A stretch of DNA of 54,250 nt from a virus (lineage: Duplodnaviria; Caudoviricetes): the IMG/VR virus record IMGVR_UViG_3300027589_000005, positions 1 to 54,250 of that record; one strand, 5' to 3'. The translations under genes were made by a program, and so were the position numbers. The notes beneath the pieces were generated by a model that made no database searches, had not been told where the DNA came from, and was given only the letters and a program-made list of their open reading frames with translations. Below, piece after piece: positions 31,259 through 35,551 of this stretch; position 1 is the first letter of the stretch, and each line of letters starts with the position of its first letter.

Positions 31259-34200
31259 ATGGAACCAGAAGTTGCGACCGAGATGGTCGCTTCGGTGCCG
31301 AGTGCACCGCCTCGAGCGGCTTTGCCCGCTATTTTGCGGCTTGATACCAAGGCCGCCGCCTTCGTCAAGGCGAAGCTGCAGAAGGAGATCTGCAAAGCCC
31401 GTCCCGAGCTCAAGCGCGTGGACTGGGAAGAGTTCTCCCTGGAGCACATTCTGGACGGTCTCATTCCTGGGGTGAACCGGGAAAAGTTCCTTCCTTGGAA
31501 GGACGTCGTCCTTAAGACGCTTATCGCGTCATACCAAGCGTCTCTGCAGCACAAGCAGAGCGCATTTGTTCAGCAGGCTAACAACGCCTCGCTGTACGTG
31601 CCGGCTGTAGTGATTCGTTGCAAGACGAAGACCTCCAGCAAGCGTGAGCAGAAGAAGAACGGCTCCGGCTGGATCTCCGAGCTTATGCTGCGCCGGCTCA
31701 TTTCCAAGCTCCTCGGCAAGCGTGCCGAGCGTGGAACGGAATGGATCACGTCCATCGTCAACGCAGCGAGCGATAAGCACCTCATTGGTGTTGAGGCAGA
31801 ACGCGGTCTTCAGGCTCCTGGCCTGTTGCACGCCGTTGCCCGGTTCGAAGGCGAGTACAATGCGGCTTCCCCGCCCGTCGCGTCCTTCGAGAACCAAGCT
31901 CTGACTCCTTCTGGCTTCGTCAAGAAGTCCCAGGATGTCATCTTGGCTGGTGGCTACATCCCGGTTGAAGGCCGTAAAGGCTTTGAGCTCGCCGGGATTA
32001 ATGGCAAGCCCTCGTGGTATTTTGATGGTCTCGTGCGTACCTTCGGGGATGCCGTGGCCTTCATGAGCTACGTGCTGAGCTTGACCAGCCCCATTTTGCC
32101 CAACGGCTTCGTTCCTAACCTGGACATTACGTTCAAGGAAAAGGTTCTCGAATTGCCGGACGGCGTTTCCCTGCCTGCGGGTGTTGATGGCTCTGGTACC
32201 TACCATCCTCACACACCTGAGCTCCAGGCATTTCTAGCGTCCAACATGGCGCTCATCGGTGGTGGCCGCAAGACCTATCCCGTTATCCAGATTCGGGTTT
32301 GGAACCCCGGATGCACGGAGACGGAGGGTCTATTTGCTAAGGGCCTGCTCGTTCCCGACATGAAATCCTTCGATGATCAGGGTAACCCTGGCATCGTTCT
32401 GGGCTTGAACCAGATTAAGGGTGTCATGAAGGAAAACGTGGAGGTCAAGCAAGCGCTGGCCACTAATGGCAGTGTGGTCCTCAAGGGCCACATGGGCTGC
32501 ATGAAGGTGTGGCGAGAGCAGAGCACGCTGAAAAGCTGCTTTGAGCTCCTGCAGCTCGTGGAGTCCACGCCTGAGACCGAAGCCGCCGTCGAGGCGCTCG
32601 TCGTGGCTACCTTCGACTCCATGCGGAAGAAGGGTCCACGCGCACTCGTCAACGTCTCGTCTGGTGGCAACACCACGCTCGAGCGTTTGATTGAGCTTGT
32701 GCTCAAGGCTGAGGAGATGGGTGTTCTTATCCCTGATCCGAAGACCGCCGAGCTCCGACCTGTCCAGATGATGGACATCAAGGCCGTTAGGACCATGGCA
32801 ATGGATAAGCTCCGTCGCCGCCTGTACAACGCAGCGAATGGTACTGGCTTTGAGGGGAACCAGGTCGTGATCATCATGGACGCGTCTGTCAAGCGCGGCC
32901 ATGTGGTGATTGGCAGTACCACTGTGGAGACACCCCCTGTGGGCGAACCCGTTGGTACTTGGCGATTCCCCGCCATTCTGGCTCAGAGCCTCAAAACTCT
33001 GATTGTCCAGGAGCCTTCCGAGCACATGCTCATCGTGGATGCCAACGGCGAAAGCTGCTTGGTTCCTTACTCAGCGTTCATGAACCCTGCGGACGTGACA
33101 GACCTGCAGGGCGACGACGATGGCGACATCGCGGCGTGGACGACCAACCCCGACGTCTTGACGCTCGCTTCGAATCTTGTGGATACCCGCAAGTATCGGA
33201 TTGAGCCGGATGGCGAGAAGGTTAAGATCACCAGTGAAAACTTGGGTGATTATGCTGAGTACCTGTCCACGGATCCCATGGGTCCTGTGGGTCAGGCGAC
33301 TGTGGCTCAGGCTCGGTTCTATGAGCTCGCAGCCATCAGCCGTTCCCTCTACGCAGCTTACCGCAAGATGGCTGCAGCAAACGCGAAGGCGAGCAAGGGT
33401 GCGAAAGCATCTGAGAACGACAAGCGTATGCCTGAGGGCTCGGAGGCCTGGGGTCTCGAACAGTGGGAAGTTTATTGCCGCGAGGCGATTGACTCCCTGT
33501 CCGAAGAGCATCTGGCTGCCTTCGATGTGGGCTGGTTGGCCTACCGGGCAAAGGCCTATAACTGGGCCCGCGCCTTTGGCGTCTTCATCCAGGAGTGCAT
33601 CGATCGCGCCAAGCGGTTCGTGCGCTGGACTGATATCCCGAAGCTCGCTAGCATGGGCGACGAGGGTTGGGCCACCATTGGTGACAGCCAAGAGCTGTAT
33701 TGCCATTGGTCCTGGGACGCTGAAGGGCGTCGTTATCCCTGGAAGCATCCGGGGCTGGCTGGTTCGCGCACCAGTCACTACCTCCCGTTGTCGGAGAGCC
33801 AGCTGCGTACCAAGCAGCCGCTTGAGCTCCTTGAGGAGTTCACCAAAGCTGCGAAGAAGTCGCTTGGTTACGACCAGGTGAACGACGCAGTTCGTTGGCG
33901 CCGTAACGTGACTGTTAAGGGCGAGATGCTTCAGAAGCGGATCGACCCTGACAACTTCCACCCGCAGAGCAAACGCCCGGGGTTGGTTGAGGTAGCGTTT
34001 AGCGCAACTCAGAAGGCGTGGGAGCTGTTGAAGGGCCACTTCAACATCCCCAACGAGGGAGCCGATTTGTCGGACCTCGTGGAGCGTATGCTTGACCGGC
34101 AGGAAGAAGCTGGCAAGGCTCCCGCTCGCCTGACCATCGGCAACAACAAGGTGTCGTGGGCGGATTTCATCCGTGCCATGAAACTGCAGGCCCGTGAGGA

Positions 34201-35551
34201 CAAATACGCGCAGCAATTCGCGTACTCCCGTGTCATGTGGTCTACGCCTGAAGGTGAGCCTGATGCGAAGGCTTGGCAATGGGTCTCGCAAGAGAACCTG
34301 CGCCTCATCAAGGAAGGGAAGGGTGGCCTCCTCCTTCCGAAAGTGGCCGATTGGCTGCCTCAAGCGTATCTTGATTACCGTATCAGGAACGCTATGGTCC
34401 TGGGTTTCAACAAGAACGACCAACGTGTCGACTTGGCCCTTGGTCATAACGAGAGCGAGGATGATAACCCGGGCAACAACCCGCGCATCCAAGCAATCGA
34501 GGAGGCCTACCGGCTGTTCAACCGCTGCATGACGGATAGTGCAGTGGACCAGGGCGACAGCGCCGTTCTGTGGCTTCTTAGGCGTTATGCCTTTGAGTCT
34601 GCGAACGTGGATCTGCTCGTGCGCAAGGATCCCGAAAGGGATGCGAAGGGTGGCGTCGCGTCATACAAGCTGGATCTCCAGCGTGGCGTGAAGGATCCCC
34701 TCGCGGCTACCAAGAAGTTCCCGGTCGCTAAGACCGAGCGTGCTCTTGATATCCTCTTGTACGAGGGCAGCCCGGTTGCTGAACACTTCCAACTGGGAGT
34801 GGCAGAGCGGTGCGTGTTTGAAGAGCTGCCGAAGTTGCGCAAGGCGGCTCGTGTTATCTGTGAGGCTGCCGACGCCCGGCAGATGGAGGGCTACACTGTA
34901 GAGCAGAAGCGAGTAGAAATGCTTGCCGAAGCTATCTTCAGTCAAAGCTACCTCTCCATTGACATGGCGGATTACCCCCACATGTCTCCTCAACAGGTCA
35001 ATCACCTGTCGGAAATTCACGTCTACTCTGGCAAGGGTCCGCTCCACCAGTGTGAAAGCTGTATGGCGGCCCTGAAGAAGGAGATCGTGAATGAGAACCG
35101 GTATGGGAAGCTGGGCGGTCGAAAGATCGCAGATCGTCTGACGGAGCTTGCGGGCAAAATCCAAGAGCACCTCAAGTCGGACGTCCAGTTTGCCTTCGAA
35201 ACGCATGTGGAACATCTCCGTATCGAGATGCTGAAGCACGCGGTTCGTGGCGATCCCGGACTGGTCACCGATCTGGTGATGGCACTCAAGGACCAAGCGT
35301 CGTTCCGTCTCAAGGTCTGGGACGTGGTTGCCGACGAGTTGGCTGGGTTGCCTAACACACAAGCCGAGACTGGGGATCATGTGGTCTCCAACCGGGCCCG
35401 AGTTGCTTTCAAGAATAGCGCAGCAATGAGCTATCTGAGCATCTATGGGTTCCAAGGTCTCGAGCGGTACTTCGATCGGGAGATTCCCTCCATCGATCCT
35501 CGTAGTGACGAGGAAGTACTCGCTTGTGTTAGCGGCGAACAGGAAATCTAA
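31259..35551 (+). CDS. Single-subunit two-barrel RNA polymerase, YonO-like / cellular RdRP-like
   Basis: Motifs in the expected order: DGSG, QIR...KGLL, RFP, catalytic DLQGDDDGD (nt 33101-33127), GPVG and IQECIDRAK; AAGGAG RBS. Confidence 0.85.
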   Translation: MEPEVATEMVASVPSAPPRAALPAILRLDTKAAAFVKAKLQKEICKARPELKRVDWEEFSLEHILDGLIPGVNREKFLPWKDVVLKTLIASYQASLQHKQSAFVQQANNASLYVPAVVIRCKTKTSSKREQKKNGSGWISELMLRRLISKLLGKRAERGTEWITSIVNAASDKHLIGVEAERGLQAPGLLHAVARFEGEYNAASPPVASFENQALTPSGFVKKSQDVILAGGYIPVEGRKGFELAGINGKPSWYFDGLVRTFGDAVAFMSYVLSLTSPILPNGFVPNLDITFKEKVLELPDGVSLPAGVDGSGTYHPHTPELQAFLASNMALIGGGRKTYPVIQIRVWNPGCTETEGLFAKGLLVPDMKSFDDQGNPGIVLGLNQIKGVMKENVEVKQALATNGSVVLKGHMGCMKVWREQSTLKSCFELLQLVESTPETEAAVEALVVATFDSMRKKGPRALVNVSSGGNTTLERLIELVLKAEEMGVLIPDPKTAELRPVQMMDIKAVRTMAMDKLRRRLYNAANGTGFEGNQVVIIMDASVKRGHVVIGSTTVETPPVGEPVGTWRFPAILAQSLKTLIVQEPSEHMLIVDANGESCLVPYSAFMNPADVTDLQGDDDGDIAAWTTNPDVLTLASNLVDTRKYRIEPDGEKVKITSENLGDYAEYLSTDPMGPVGQATVAQARFYELAAISRSLYAAYRKMAAANAKASKGAKASENDKRMPEGSEAWGLEQWEVYCREAIDSLSEEHLAAFDVGWLAYRAKAYNWARAFGVFIQECIDRAKRFVRWTDIPKLASMGDEGWATIGDSQELYCHWSWDAEGRRYPWKHPGLAGSRTSHYLPLSESQLRTKQPLELLEEFTKAAKKSLGYDQVNDAVRWRRNVTVKGEMLQKRIDPDNFHPQSKRPGLVEVAFSATQKAWELLKGHFNIPNEGADLSDLVERMLDRQEEAGKAPARLTIGNNKVSWADFIRAMKLQAREDKYAQQFAYSRVMWSTPEGEPDAKAWQWVSQENLRLIKEGKGGLLLPKVADWLPQAYLDYRIRNAMVLGFNKNDQRVDLALGHNESEDDNPGNNPRIQAIEEAYRLFNRCMTDSAVDQGDSAVLWLLRRYAFESANVDLLVRKDPERDAKGGVASYKLDLQRGVKDPLAATKKFPVAKTERALDILLYEGSPVAEHFQLGVAERCVFEELPKLRKAARVICEAADARQMEGYTVEQKRVEMLAEAIFSQSYLSIDMADYPHMSPQQVNHLSEIHVYSGKGPLHQCESCMAALKKEIVNENRYGKLGGRKIADRLTELAGKIQEHLKSDVQFAFETHVEHLRIEMLKHAVRGDPGLVTDLVMALKDQASFRLKVWDVVADELAGLPNTQAETGDHVVSNRARVAFKNSAAMSYLSIYGFQGLERYFDREIPSIDPRSDEEVLACVSGEQEI

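What the first reader, a model, noticed from the sequence alone, without database searches (positions are those of the whole stretch)
31259..35551. Unusually large YonO/RdRP-like single-chain polymerase embedded in an array of structured RNAs
Seen: DGSG, QIR...KGLL, RFP, DLQGDDDGD and IQECIDRAK occur in the order known from cellular RdRPs (QDE-1 type) and SPbeta YonO. The catalytic loop is DDDGD rather than the usual DFDGD/DLDGD, and roughly 600 aa of unrecognised sequence follows the core. Its own gene is preceded by the hairpin motif (31173-31197). Inference: a self-amplifying transcription system in which the C-terminal extension may recognise the promoter. RNA-templated activity on the neighbouring structured RNAs cannot be excluded.
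Basis: partly seen in the sequence, partly recalled or inferred. Interest (0 to 1): 0.85.

Follow-up and report, generated by a model that had tools for sequence, protein, structure and literature searches.

The report
Large phage single-chain RNA polymerase
This gene of an uncultured large phage encodes a one-piece RNA polymerase built like the polymerases of cells and of RNA interference; phage enzymes of this kind are already known in outline, and this is an unusually long, undescribed version.

Summary
ORF 31259-35551 (+) encodes 1430 aa and carries all five motifs. An AlphaFold model of aa 1-1000 (pLDDT 88, pTM 0.86) matches two-barrel RNA polymerases. These are plant RDR2 (Z 16.0), QDE-1 (Z 13.7), the Thermus-phage non-virion RNAPs 8F72/8F5M (Z 13.4-13.7) and the Pol II largest subunit.

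The protein belongs to an unnamed family seen here only in metagenomes and viral contigs: 133 cluster representatives, none found in species genomes. DDDGD is the family norm (97 of 105). Most of the "unrecognised C-terminus" is shared family-wide and carries a conserved Cys-His-Cys-Cys set. Only inserts and a tail of about 120 aa are specific to a four-member subclade.

YonO is related only through the catalytic loop. Bacillus phage 0305phi8-36 gp99 is a distant cultured relative.

The hairpin motif before the gene is real, and its whole upstream architecture is conserved in a second lineage. Best reading: an early-made DNA-dependent transcriptase for hairpin-marked middle genes, possibly second in a two-polymerase relay. 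Template choice and promoter are inferred, not shown. This scan has found this kind before on other DNA.

The parts
31259..35551 (+). Gene for the 1430-aa single-chain two-barrel RNA polymerase (P0001), stop codon included
   Evidence: ORF and translation. Homologues at 98, 56, 46 and 32% identity. 133 family representatives. Fold.
32108..32533 (+). aa 284-425: first beta-barrel region (beta-subunit-like DPBB) with DGSG, QIR, FAKGLL and NQIKG. Holds invariant D310, G311, Q344, K361, G362 and K387.
   Evidence: Strands in the model. Invariant columns. Motif counts. The assignment as the Lys-donating barrel is inferred, because residue-level superposition was not available.
32852..33142 (+). aa 532-628: second beta-barrel region (beta-prime-like DPBB) with RFP (569-571) and the metal-binding loop
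   Evidence: Strands at 532-608 and 624-628. Pol II largest-subunit chains align from model residue about 531 (Z 11.7, rmsd 3.7, 157 aligned).
33101..33127 (+). aa 615-623 DLQGDDDGD: catalytic Asp triad D619/D621/D623
   Evidence: Invariant in 80 sequences. DDDGD in 97 of 105 members. hhalign places it on QFDNDGD of YonO and on GADTDGD of 0305phi8-36 gp99.
33503..33616 (+). aa 749-786: long helix carrying FIQECIDRAKR; candidate bridge helix
   Evidence: Helix 749-782 in the model. Q778, D782 and K785 are invariant. The role is inferred from position after the catalytic barrel.
34811..35062 (+). aa 1185-1268: family-wide C-terminal region with C1185, H1254, C1265 and C1268; candidate zinc site
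   Evidence: Conservation 105/105, 100/105, 104/105 and 104/105. Metal binding is inferred. The fold is unresolved (model pLDDT 57.7; best Z 6.8).
35186..35548 (+). aa 1310-1430: C-terminal tail specific to the long subfamily (P0001, P0003, P0004, P0005)
   Evidence: Relatives outside the subfamily occupy 2-41% of these columns; subfamily members occupy 72-100%. Clade support 1.0.
31249..31254 (+). AAGGAG ribosome-binding site before the ATG
   Evidence: Sequence
31172..31198 (+). Class B signal: GCCCCC-TTCG-GGGGGT hairpin followed by GTGTGTTCTTTG, 61 nt before the start codon
   Evidence: The same element sits before the polymerase gene in L003 and L045.
31117..31162 (+). Class-A-like signal: terminator-like hairpin 31117-31138, pyrimidine tract, then TTTTATGG at 31155-31162
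   Evidence: The same arrangement is found in L003 and L045.

Best explanation
The gene encodes a single-chain 'two-barrel' RNA polymerase. Two double-psi beta-barrels form one active site, with D619/D621/D623 holding the catalytic metal.

It most likely copies the phage's double-stranded DNA into RNA, acting as the phage's own transcriptase. It is made early, from a T-tract-TTTTATGG start signal of the kind that heads the array of small genes just upstream.

It then reads the genes downstream of it, and perhaps its own gene. These are marked by a GC hairpin with a TTCG centre followed by a GTTCT-TGG box. The early signals would be read by another enzyme. One candidate is a giant conserved structural-module protein with an invariant DxDGD, which lies outside this window.

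Shown: the ORF, the fold, the intact active-site residues, the family, and the motifs with their layout.

Inferred: DNA template, timing, and which signal the enzyme reads.

My odds: two-barrel polymerase 0.95; DNA-dependent phage transcriptase 0.8; reads the class B hairpin-box signals 0.45-0.5.
For: Fold:
- The model of aa 1-1000 has pLDDT 88.0 and pTM 0.86.
- Foldseek gives QDE-1 2j7n at E 4.2e-11. It also gives RDR2, phage RNAPs 8f5m and 8f72, crAss-like 6vr4 and P23-45 gp96. In all, 28 matches have E <= 0.001.
- VIA-align gives RDR2 7w84 Z 16.0 (rmsd 4.0, 482 aligned) and QDE-1 7y7s Z 13.7 (rmsd 4.8, 539 aligned). It also gives 8f72 Z 13.7 (rmsd 3.8, 421 aligned) and Pol II Rpb1 Z 11.7 (rmsd 3.7, 157 aligned).

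Active site: the Asp triad and the barrel residues are invariant.

Family link: 6 of 46 relatives match Pfam RdRP PF05183, best E 1.7e-10.

Phage context:
- The window holds a capsid protein and a large terminase and is a viral record estimated 36% complete.
- Relatives lie in complete phage genomes of 147-193 kb, one copy each.
- No sigma-70 region 2 was found in 0 of 5 records, while the control rang in 10 of 14 genomes.
- No sigma-70-like promoter was found in 30200-36300 (0 against 2.0 expected), and there is no excess over 23.5-43.5 kb (8 against 9.1).

Signals:
- TTCTATGG occurs 12 times, all on +, against 1.5 expected. Ten copies lie at 24.4-30.3 kb upstream of the gene.
- CCTTCGGG occurs 27 times, 26 on +, against 2.25 expected, mostly from 31.2 kb onward.
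- 18 of 26 + strand hairpin cores carry a TTC box within 16 nt, against 0 of 6 on the - strand.
- The same two-zone layout around the polymerase gene is found in G001, whose polymerase is 32% identical.
- One class B copy precedes a tmRNA gene, so the signal is not just a ribosome-binding context.

Precedents, read as passages:
- YonO is a DNA-dependent RNAP of SPbeta (PMC5467207).
- 0305phi8-36 gp99 was proposed as a DNA-directed RNAP with phage-specific middle promoters (PMC2147016).
Against: - No transcript start, enzyme assay or virion proteome exists.
- The window protein itself matches no Pfam, PHROG or PDB sequence, so the assignment rests on a predicted fold and on relatives.
- The closest solved folds are RNA-templated enzymes (RDR2) or dual-activity ones (QDE-1). 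Homology therefore does not settle the template.
- Class B hairpins were found only in the window and G001 lineages. They were not found in the terminal 40-60 kb examined of G002 and G003, whereas TT[TC]TATGG arrays sit upstream of the polymerase in all four. The family-wide partner of the enzyme could therefore be class A instead.
- Class B hairpins are also flagged as terminator-like. CUUCGG-type hairpins are known RNA stabilisers (recalled), so they may act in RNA rather than as promoters.
- The proposed first enzyme is supported only by a conserved motif. Profile comparisons with the polymerase family gave probability 0.1-0.3%.
Confidence: 0.6

Rival explanations
1. It is the same enzyme, but its promoters are the class A signals (T-tract followed by TT[CT]TATGG), alone or together with class B. 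The polymerase would then have to arrive with the virion or be primed by a little host transcription.
For: Class A-type arrays lie directly upstream of the polymerase gene, on its strand, in all four lineages examined. Counts are: window 10 copies at 24.4-30.3 kb; G001 7 copies at 24.3-28.8 kb; G002 7 copies at 13.8-18.2 kb; G003 8 copies at 2.9-11.8 kb. This holds although the polymerases are only about 28-33% identical. The polymerase gene itself sits behind such a signal.
Against: It creates a bootstrap problem, since the enzyme's own gene would need the enzyme. It leaves class B and the rest of the genome without a reader, although no sigma factor is encoded and sigma-70-like promoters are not enriched. 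A second conserved DxDGD protein co-occurs just as faithfully and could be the class A reader.
Confidence: 0.22
2. The hairpin elements act in RNA, as terminators, 5' or 3' stabilisers or processing sites. They are not promoters, and the polymerase's true start signals are something not yet recognised.
For: Terminator-like hairpins are about 3.7-fold enriched: 69 against 18.8 +/- 4.1, mostly on the + strand. Class B copies are themselves scored as terminator-like. Some stems close with G-T pairs on the sense strand only. The CTTCGG centre is the classic very stable RNA loop (recalled, not read here).
Against: The conserved box after the hairpin (GTTCT-TGG) is shared with class A, where it is 60-90 nt from the start codon and is not a ribosome-binding site. 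Nothing conserved was seen upstream of the hairpins that could serve as another promoter (by eye).
Confidence: 0.2
3. The enzyme works on RNA templates, as RDR2 does and as QDE-1 can. It would copy or amplify the structured RNAs encoded around it.
For: The best structural matches are RDR2 and QDE-1. Relatives match the Pfam RdRP model. QDE-1 has both activities (PMC9508822, abstract start seen in the listing). The neighbourhood is rich in hairpins.
Against: Every phage member of this superfamily that has been tested was shown or taken to be DNA-dependent: YonO, and the P23-45 gp64 and gp96 enzymes. crAss-like gp66 is named a DNA-dependent RNAP in a PDB title. The signals sit in DNA in front of genes on one strand, as promoters do. 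No RNA-replicon feature was seen. Hardies et al. reached the same view for gp99.
Confidence: 0.05

Closest known systems
Bacillus thuringiensis phage 0305phi8-36 gp99 (ABS83659.1), annotated 'hypothetical DNA-directed RNA polymerase, similar to Pfam05183'
   Same: Both are single-chain polymerases of a large phage. The family profile finds gp99 (E 4.0e-5), and hhalign gives probability 59%, E 9.2e-5, over 66 columns around the catalytic barrel. The window's large terminase is related to that phage's (25.7% identity over 65%). In both phages the gene lies next to an array of small single-gene units, and phage-specific promoter candidates have been proposed as its targets (PMC2147016, passages).
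   Different: Sequence likeness is confined to one barrel. gp99 has 1218 aa against 1430, and its loop is GADTDGD against GDDDGD. The promoter candidates of 0305phi8-36 are described as a 21-bp motif, not a hairpin plus box (I did not see the logo). gp99 has not been tested biochemically either.
YonO of Bacillus prophage SPbeta
   Same: Both are single-chain two-barrel RNAPs with an Asp triad. YonO is the experimentally proven DNA-dependent example and transcribes phage late genes; its promoter is still undefined (PMC5467207, passages).
   Different: There is no usable sequence homology. hhalign gives probability 1.2% and aligns only QGDDDGD with QFDNDGD. BLASTP found nothing below E 0.9. Neither the family profile nor PF05183 finds YonO in the SPbeta record. 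YonO has 839 aa.
Eukaryotic RNA-silencing polymerases: plant RDR2 and Neurospora/Thielavia QDE-1 (Pfam PF05183)
   Same: These are the best fold matches, over about 480-540 residues spanning both barrels and the helices after them (Z 16.0 and 13.7). 6 of 46 family members pass or approach the Pfam model.
   Different: Identity is 10-13%. They are eukaryotic and work on RNA templates (QDE-1 on both). The window protein itself gets no Pfam match and adds about 500 C-terminal residues with a Cys-His-Cys-Cys set.
Thermus phage non-virion RNAPs: P23-45 gp64, and PDB entries 8F5M (P74 gp62) and 8F72 (phage P32 gp64)
   Same: These are phage single-chain two-barrel transcriptases with Z 13.4-13.7 over 421-449 residues. 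In P23-45 the enzyme is the second of two phage RNAPs, each with its own promoter motif. Its gene is transcribed by the virion enzyme (PMC10770324, passages). That is the scheme proposed here.
   Different: They have about 600 aa against 1430, and no sequence match was found. The host and phage lineage differ, and the P23-45 promoters are not described as hairpins in the passages seen.
Coliphage N4 virion RNAP and its DNA-hairpin early promoters
   Same: A phage RNAP that recognises a small hairpin with conserved loop features would be the nearest functional analogue of a class B promoter. This is recalled, and named in earlier scan notes; I did not read it here.
   Different: The N4 enzyme is of the unrelated T7-like fold, so the likeness would be convergent. 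Hairpin recognition is not shown here.

Membership tests
Two-barrel (double-psi beta-barrel) RNA polymerase superfamily | DxDxD metal-binding loop in one barrel | tested here: met
   D619, D621 and D623 are invariant in 80 sequences. The loop is DDDGD in 97 of 105 members.
Two-barrel (double-psi beta-barrel) RNA polymerase superfamily | Overall fold with two barrels, shared with solved members | tested here: met
   Predicted model pLDDT 88. Foldseek E down to 4.2e-11. VIA-align Z 13-16 over 420-540 residues, and Z 11.7 to Pol II Rpb1. This rests on a prediction, not a solved structure.
Two-barrel (double-psi beta-barrel) RNA polymerase superfamily | Conserved basic residues supplied by the second barrel (as stated in PMC7824862) | tested here: inconclusive
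   K361 and K387 are invariant and K391 is nearly so.
Two-barrel (double-psi beta-barrel) RNA polymerase superfamily | Template-dependent RNA synthesis | not testable with these tools
   Needs purified protein.
Pfam PF05183 RdRP | Match to the family HMM at or above the gathering score (23.8 bits) | tested here: not met
   The whole protein gives 0 families at E <= 1, and aa 1-1000 give 0 at E <= 0.01. Relatives do match: 6 of 46 at E <= 0.01, best 1.7e-10, and P0026 scores 24.9 bits. It is therefore a remote relative, not an HMM-level member.
YonO-like proteins | Detectable sequence homology to SPbeta YonO beyond the catalytic loop | tested here: not met
   hhalign probability 1.2% over 40 columns on the loop only. 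BLASTP best E 0.9. The family profile finds nothing in the SPbeta record.
Unnamed metagenomic phage polymerase family (this report) | Full-length homology, QGDDDGD loop and the C-terminal Cys-His-Cys-Cys set | tested here: met
   133 representatives at E <= 0.001 and 57 at E <= 1e-30. Motif counts. Clade with P0003, P0004 and P0005, support 1.0.
Hairpin-promoter transcription (N4-like in function) | Initiation by the phage RNAP at a hairpin-containing promoter | not testable with these tools
   Only the motif's enrichment, strand bias and position are shown. The one RNA run is held as contigs, which cannot show starts.

The most novel reading that the evidence does not exclude
A two-polymerase relay in a lineage of large uncultured phages. 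First, a giant virion-module protein with an invariant DxDGD starts transcription at T-tract-TTCTATGG signals, including the one before this gene. Then this long two-barrel polymerase takes over at promoters whose key feature is a small GC hairpin with a TTCG centre plus a fixed box. Under this reading the subfamily-specific inserts and C-terminal tail have co-evolved with that hairpin class and recognise it. The copy in front of the polymerase's own gene would give positive feedback. This would be the first defined promoter for an RdRP/YonO-type phage polymerase, and a hairpin promoter evolved independently of phage N4.
Probability: 0.3. Interest if true: 0.75.

Novelty: new variant of a known kind. 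Interest (0 to 1): 0.5.

Why it matters
Single-chain two-barrel RNA polymerases are the smallest relatives of the cellular transcription machine, and very few have been studied. The passages I read cover YonO, crAss-like gp66 and the P23-45 pair. For YonO the promoter is stated to be unknown (PMC5467207).

This gene belongs to a sizeable family: 133 representatives at 50% identity. None of the libraries I searched holds it (Pfam, PHROGs, PDB sequences, cultured-phage records by tblastn). It comes with two sharply defined, strand-specific signal classes laid out around it in several phage genomes.

That makes promoter recognition by this enzyme class directly testable with a purified protein and short DNA templates. 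The polymerase alone is an expected kind of thing, and this scan has already met it repeatedly on other DNA. The added value lies in three points:
- the long subfamily
- the conserved Cys-His-Cys-Cys C-terminal region
- the possible pairing of the polymerase with the signals

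Tried and rejected
Sequence-only identification failed.
- The protein gave 0 hits in Pfam and PHROGs, and only a chance PDB hit (E 1.3).
- The 80-sequence profile against PDB sequences gave only chance hits (best E 0.035, Cas12a, in the N-terminal helices).
- PHROGs also gave nothing for 8 relatives.
- tblastn against 50,697 phage records gave no match.

C-terminal region. The second structure job (aa 801-1430, 7 sequences) gave a poor model (pLDDT 57.7). Its wide fold search gave only helical look-alikes (best Z 6.8, 67 aligned), and the Atlas feature search scored 0.75. 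I therefore make no claim about its fold, and none that it is new.

Distribution. Two scans of 185,579 species genomes found no relative. These use short peptide patterns, so they cannot prove absence.

Expression.
- One metatranscriptome run (a single study, labelled freshwater metagenome) holds 15 contigs on 24000-43999.
- Eight of them are at 99% identity or more, and four listed pieces lie inside the polymerase gene.
- The run is kept as contigs and may contain DNA. It therefore shows presence in an RNA library, not transcription, starts or strand.
- Parts without cover mean nothing.

Candidate first polymerase (the giant DxDGD protein).
- Pfam gave no match.
- hhalign against the polymerase family gave probability 0.1% and 0.3% profile to profile.
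- The PDB profile search gave only chance hits, and the Atlas search gave nothing usable.

T7-like RNAP (PF00940). It was not found in 5 records, but the control rang nowhere, so the result is uninformative.

Residue-level checks of the active-site geometry were therefore not possible.

Literature. Searches for a description of this family found YonO, P23-45, crAss-like, jumbo-phage and 0305phi8-36 papers, but none on this family. The library lacks most subscription journals, so this does not prove that nothing is in print. The promoter logos and motif tables of PMC10770324 and the sequence tables of PMC5467207 were not seen and could bear on the promoter comparison.

Considered and rejected:
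- A spurious ORF in GC-rich DNA. Rejected because homologues at 32-98% identity conserve the frame end to end.
- A PolD-like DNA polymerase. Rejected because every strong fold match is an RNA polymerase.

Full report
**The observation.**
The window is a linear viral record of 54,250 bases, estimated 36% complete. The ORF 31259-35551 (+) is open for 1430 codons, and AAGGAG precedes the ATG.

- DGSG at aa 310-313
- QIR at 344-346 and KGLL at 361-364
- RFP at 569-571
- DLQGDDDGD at 615-623
- IQECIDRAK at 777-785

The protein alone matches nothing in Pfam, PHROGs or PDB sequences.

**The family.**
A word-indexed search found five relatives at 98, 56, 46, 32 and 38% identity (the last a partial of 808 aa). 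They align end to end.

An exhaustive HMMER search with aa 1-1200 found 133 cluster representatives at E <= 0.001 and 57 at E <= 1e-30. Most are 950-1100 aa long and match query residues about 250-690.

- In an 80-sequence alignment D619, D621, D623, E649, G678, Q778, D782 and K785 are invariant.
- In a 46-sequence alignment D310, G311, Q344, K361, G362, K387, R569 and P571 are invariant as well.
- Six of those 46 members match Pfam RdRP PF05183 (best E 1.7e-10), though the window protein does not.

**The fold.**
An AlphaFold2 model of aa 1-1000 built on the 80-sequence alignment has mean pLDDT 88.0 and pTM 0.86.

Foldseek against the PDB gave 28 matches at E <= 0.001:

| Match | E-value |
|---|---|
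| QDE-1 | 4.2e-11 |
| RDR2 | down to 4.3e-8 |
| Phage RNAPs 8F5M and 8F72 | 6e-7 to 8e-7 |
| crAss-like virion RNAP 6VR4 | 4.9e-6 |
| P23-45 gp96 | 1.9e-4 |

VIA-align on the same candidates:

| Match | Z | rmsd (A) | Aligned | Model range |
|---|---|---|---|---|
| RDR2 | 16.0 | 4.0 | 482 | 111-932 |
| QDE-1 | 13.7 | 4.8 | 539 | 110-931 |
| 8F72 | 13.7 | 3.8 | 421 | 184-929 |
| Pol II largest subunit | 11.7 | 3.7 | 157 | 531-878 |

The viral predicted-structure library gave uncultured tailed-phage proteins first (E 1.4e-17). Some of its hits are annotated as RNA-dependent RNA polymerases.

**What is and is not unusual.**
- DDDGD is the family norm, found in 97 of 105 members of 900 aa or more.
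- The protein is long for its family: third of 105, median 1030 aa.
- The excess is not one 600-aa appendage. Column occupancy shows that much of aa 780-1300 is shared with the shorter relatives.
- The sequence specific to the long forms is a set of inserts (about 121-180, 700-760, 980-1040, 1200-1220) plus a tail (about 1310-1430).
- The shared C-terminal part carries C1185 (105/105), H1254 (100/105), C1265 and C1268 (104/105 each). I read this as a probable zinc site, which is an inference.
- P0001, P0003, P0004 and P0005 form a clade with support 1.0 on a long branch. Other long members are scattered (105 sequences, 783 columns, FastTree, midpoint root).
- The fold of aa 930-1430 could not be resolved.

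**Relation to named enzymes.**
- YonO was taken from the SPbeta record. It aligns with the family profile only at the catalytic loop, at 1.2% probability. BLASTP finds nothing, and neither the family profile nor PF05183 detects it in the SPbeta record. 'YonO-like' is thus true of the kind, not of the family.
- The window's large terminase is nearest to those of Moorella phage MTATph1 (30%), Acinetobacter phage ME3 (28%) and Bacillus phage 0305phi8-36 (26%).
- The family profile finds one place in 0305phi8-36 (E 4.0e-5) and none in the other two. That place is gp99, annotated as a hypothetical DNA-directed RNA polymerase similar to Pfam05183. hhalign gives probability 59%, E 9.2e-5.
- Hardies et al. 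(PMC2147016, passages) argued in 2007 that gp99 is a DNA-directed RNAP. They placed it beside an array of small single-gene units and proposed phage-specific promoter candidates as its targets.
- Iyer et al. (PMC7824862, passages) list it as a YonO-like single-subunit enzyme.

The kind is therefore known. This family and subfamily I did not find described.

**Surroundings.**
The left arm (1-23.6 kb, - strand, 44-48% GC) holds structural and packaging genes, including a capsid protein, a large terminase and an SNase-domain protein. From 24 kb on, genes run on the + strand at 54-58% GC. Two signal classes punctuate this arm.

- **Class A.** A terminator-like hairpin, a T-run and TTCTATGG. There are 12 exact copies, all on +, against 1.5 expected, and ten lie at 24.4-30.3 kb.
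- **Class B.** A GC hairpin centred on CCTTCGGG, followed after 3-5 nt by a GTTCT-TGG box. The core occurs 27 times, 26 on +, against 2.25 expected, almost all from 31.2 kb onward. Of 26 + strand cores, 18 have the TTC box within 16 nt; of 6 on the - strand, none has.
- **Background.** Sigma-70-like promoters are not enriched (0 against 2.0; 8 against 9.1). Terminator-like hairpins are (69 against 18.8).

The polymerase gene sits exactly at the boundary and has both signals upstream:
- hairpin 31117-31138, a pyrimidine tract and TTTTATGG at 31155
- then the class B hairpin at 31172-31197

**Comparative test.**
- In G001 (a 147-kb genome, 99% complete, polymerase 32% identical) the same layout recurs. 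Class A copies lie only at 23-29 kb on the polymerase strand, just upstream of the gene. Class B copies lie downstream on the same strand, 15 of 26 with the box against 1 of 13 on the other strand.
- The region before the polymerase gene is built the same way in L003 and in the related contig L045: terminator, pyrimidine tract, TTTTATGG, 10-14 nt, CCCC-TTCG-GGGG hairpin, GTTC..GTCAC. In L045 about 85 nt then separate the hairpin from the ATG that matches the aligned N-terminus.
- In the more distant complete genomes G002 (183.5 kb, terminal repeats) and G003 (192.5 kb), TT[TC]TATGG arrays again lie directly upstream of the polymerase on its strand (7 and 8 copies). TTCG hairpins of class B were not seen in the 60 kb examined of each.
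- Each complete genome has one family member, and none of five records encodes a sigma-70 region 2.

**A possible first polymerase.**
A scan of G001 for large ORFs with D-x-D-x-D found a 1772-aa ORF in the structural module with DADGD.

- Homologues exist in G004 (a 99%-identical relative of the window's phage, where the protein has 1798 aa and 42% identity), in G002 and in G003.
- The motif column is invariant as D-x-D-G-D (DADGD, DADGD, DMDGD, DFDGD). Invariant R-x-P...GN and GGG motifs lie upstream of it.
It is a lead only.
- By synteny with G001 and G004, the gene should lie beyond this window's left end.

**Mechanism proposed.**
By analogy with P23-45, a virion RNAP would read one motif, including the one before the non-virion RNAP gene, and that second enzyme would read another motif (PMC10770324, passages). 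On this basis I propose three steps:
1. Class A signals start the early small genes and this gene.
2. The new polymerase then reads class B units.
3. The class B copy in its own leader may add feedback.

The rivals are listed separately:
- the enzyme reads class A
- the hairpins act only in RNA
- the enzyme is RNA-templated

One metatranscriptome run holds near-identical contigs over the gene, but as contigs they cannot show transcription or starts.

**Earlier scan notes.**
This scan has already reported phage polymerases of this fold, hairpin-type promoter candidates and a two-polymerase relay on other genomes. It has also reported the class A motif on this window. I treated these as leads.
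- The fold, the family, the motif statistics and the 0305phi8-36 link were tested independently here.
- The relay remains an inference.

**Verdict.**
This is a real gene and a real two-barrel polymerase. It is a long, undescribed variant of a known kind. The template and the promoter are not shown.

Noticed in passing
Outside the window, beyond its left end; L037:1501-6894:- (G004), L021:1255-6570:+ (G001), L038:1501-6396:- (G003), L040:190-5184:+ (G002): A giant protein of about 1670-1800 aa in the structural module is conserved in all four related phage genomes. It has an invariant D-x-D-G-D (DADGD/DADGD/DMDGD/DFDGD) and upstream R-x-P...GN and GGG motifs, which makes it a candidate virion RNA polymerase. 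No profile or library match supports this yet.
   Followed up: partly
window 50298-50698 (+), with a class B signal at 50081-50107: A full-length tmRNA match (Rfam RF00023, 82.7 bits, E 1.3e-30) lies in a phage record. ARAGORN did not call it. It lies about 190 nt behind a class B hairpin-box signal.
   Followed up: no
window 24401-24434, 24837-24870, 28877-28910, 29832-29865; L003 4094-4130: The leaders that follow class A signals are paralogous. The first about 28 nt (TTCTATGG plus the next 20) are identical between this window and a phage whose polymerase is only 32% identical. That is far more conserved than the proteins, so the element is functional in RNA or DNA.
   Followed up: partly
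window 2001-24000 versus 24001-42000: There is a sharp compositional split. The structural arm has 44-48% GC and the early/middle arm 54-58% GC. The same trend is seen in G001.
   Followed up: no
window 19516-22674 (-): A 1052-aa protein with a staphylococcal-nuclease domain (PF00565, E 2.5e-12) lies between packaging genes. A same-sized ORF occupies the matching place in G001 (30566-33739).
   Followed up: no
G002:C1:10837-13593 (-), locus L016: The polymerase match in the complete 183.5-kb genome G002 is reported with one in-frame TGA inside the matched span. I did not examine whether this is an alignment overhang, a frameshift or a recoded stop.
   Followed up: no
window 46232-46780 (+) and 45726-46199 (+): There is a DprA-like recombination-mediator protein (phrog_768, E 9.6e-51) and, before it, a protein of PHROG families of unknown function (phrog_652, E 1.3e-29). 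Most other genes of the right arm match nothing.
   Followed up: no
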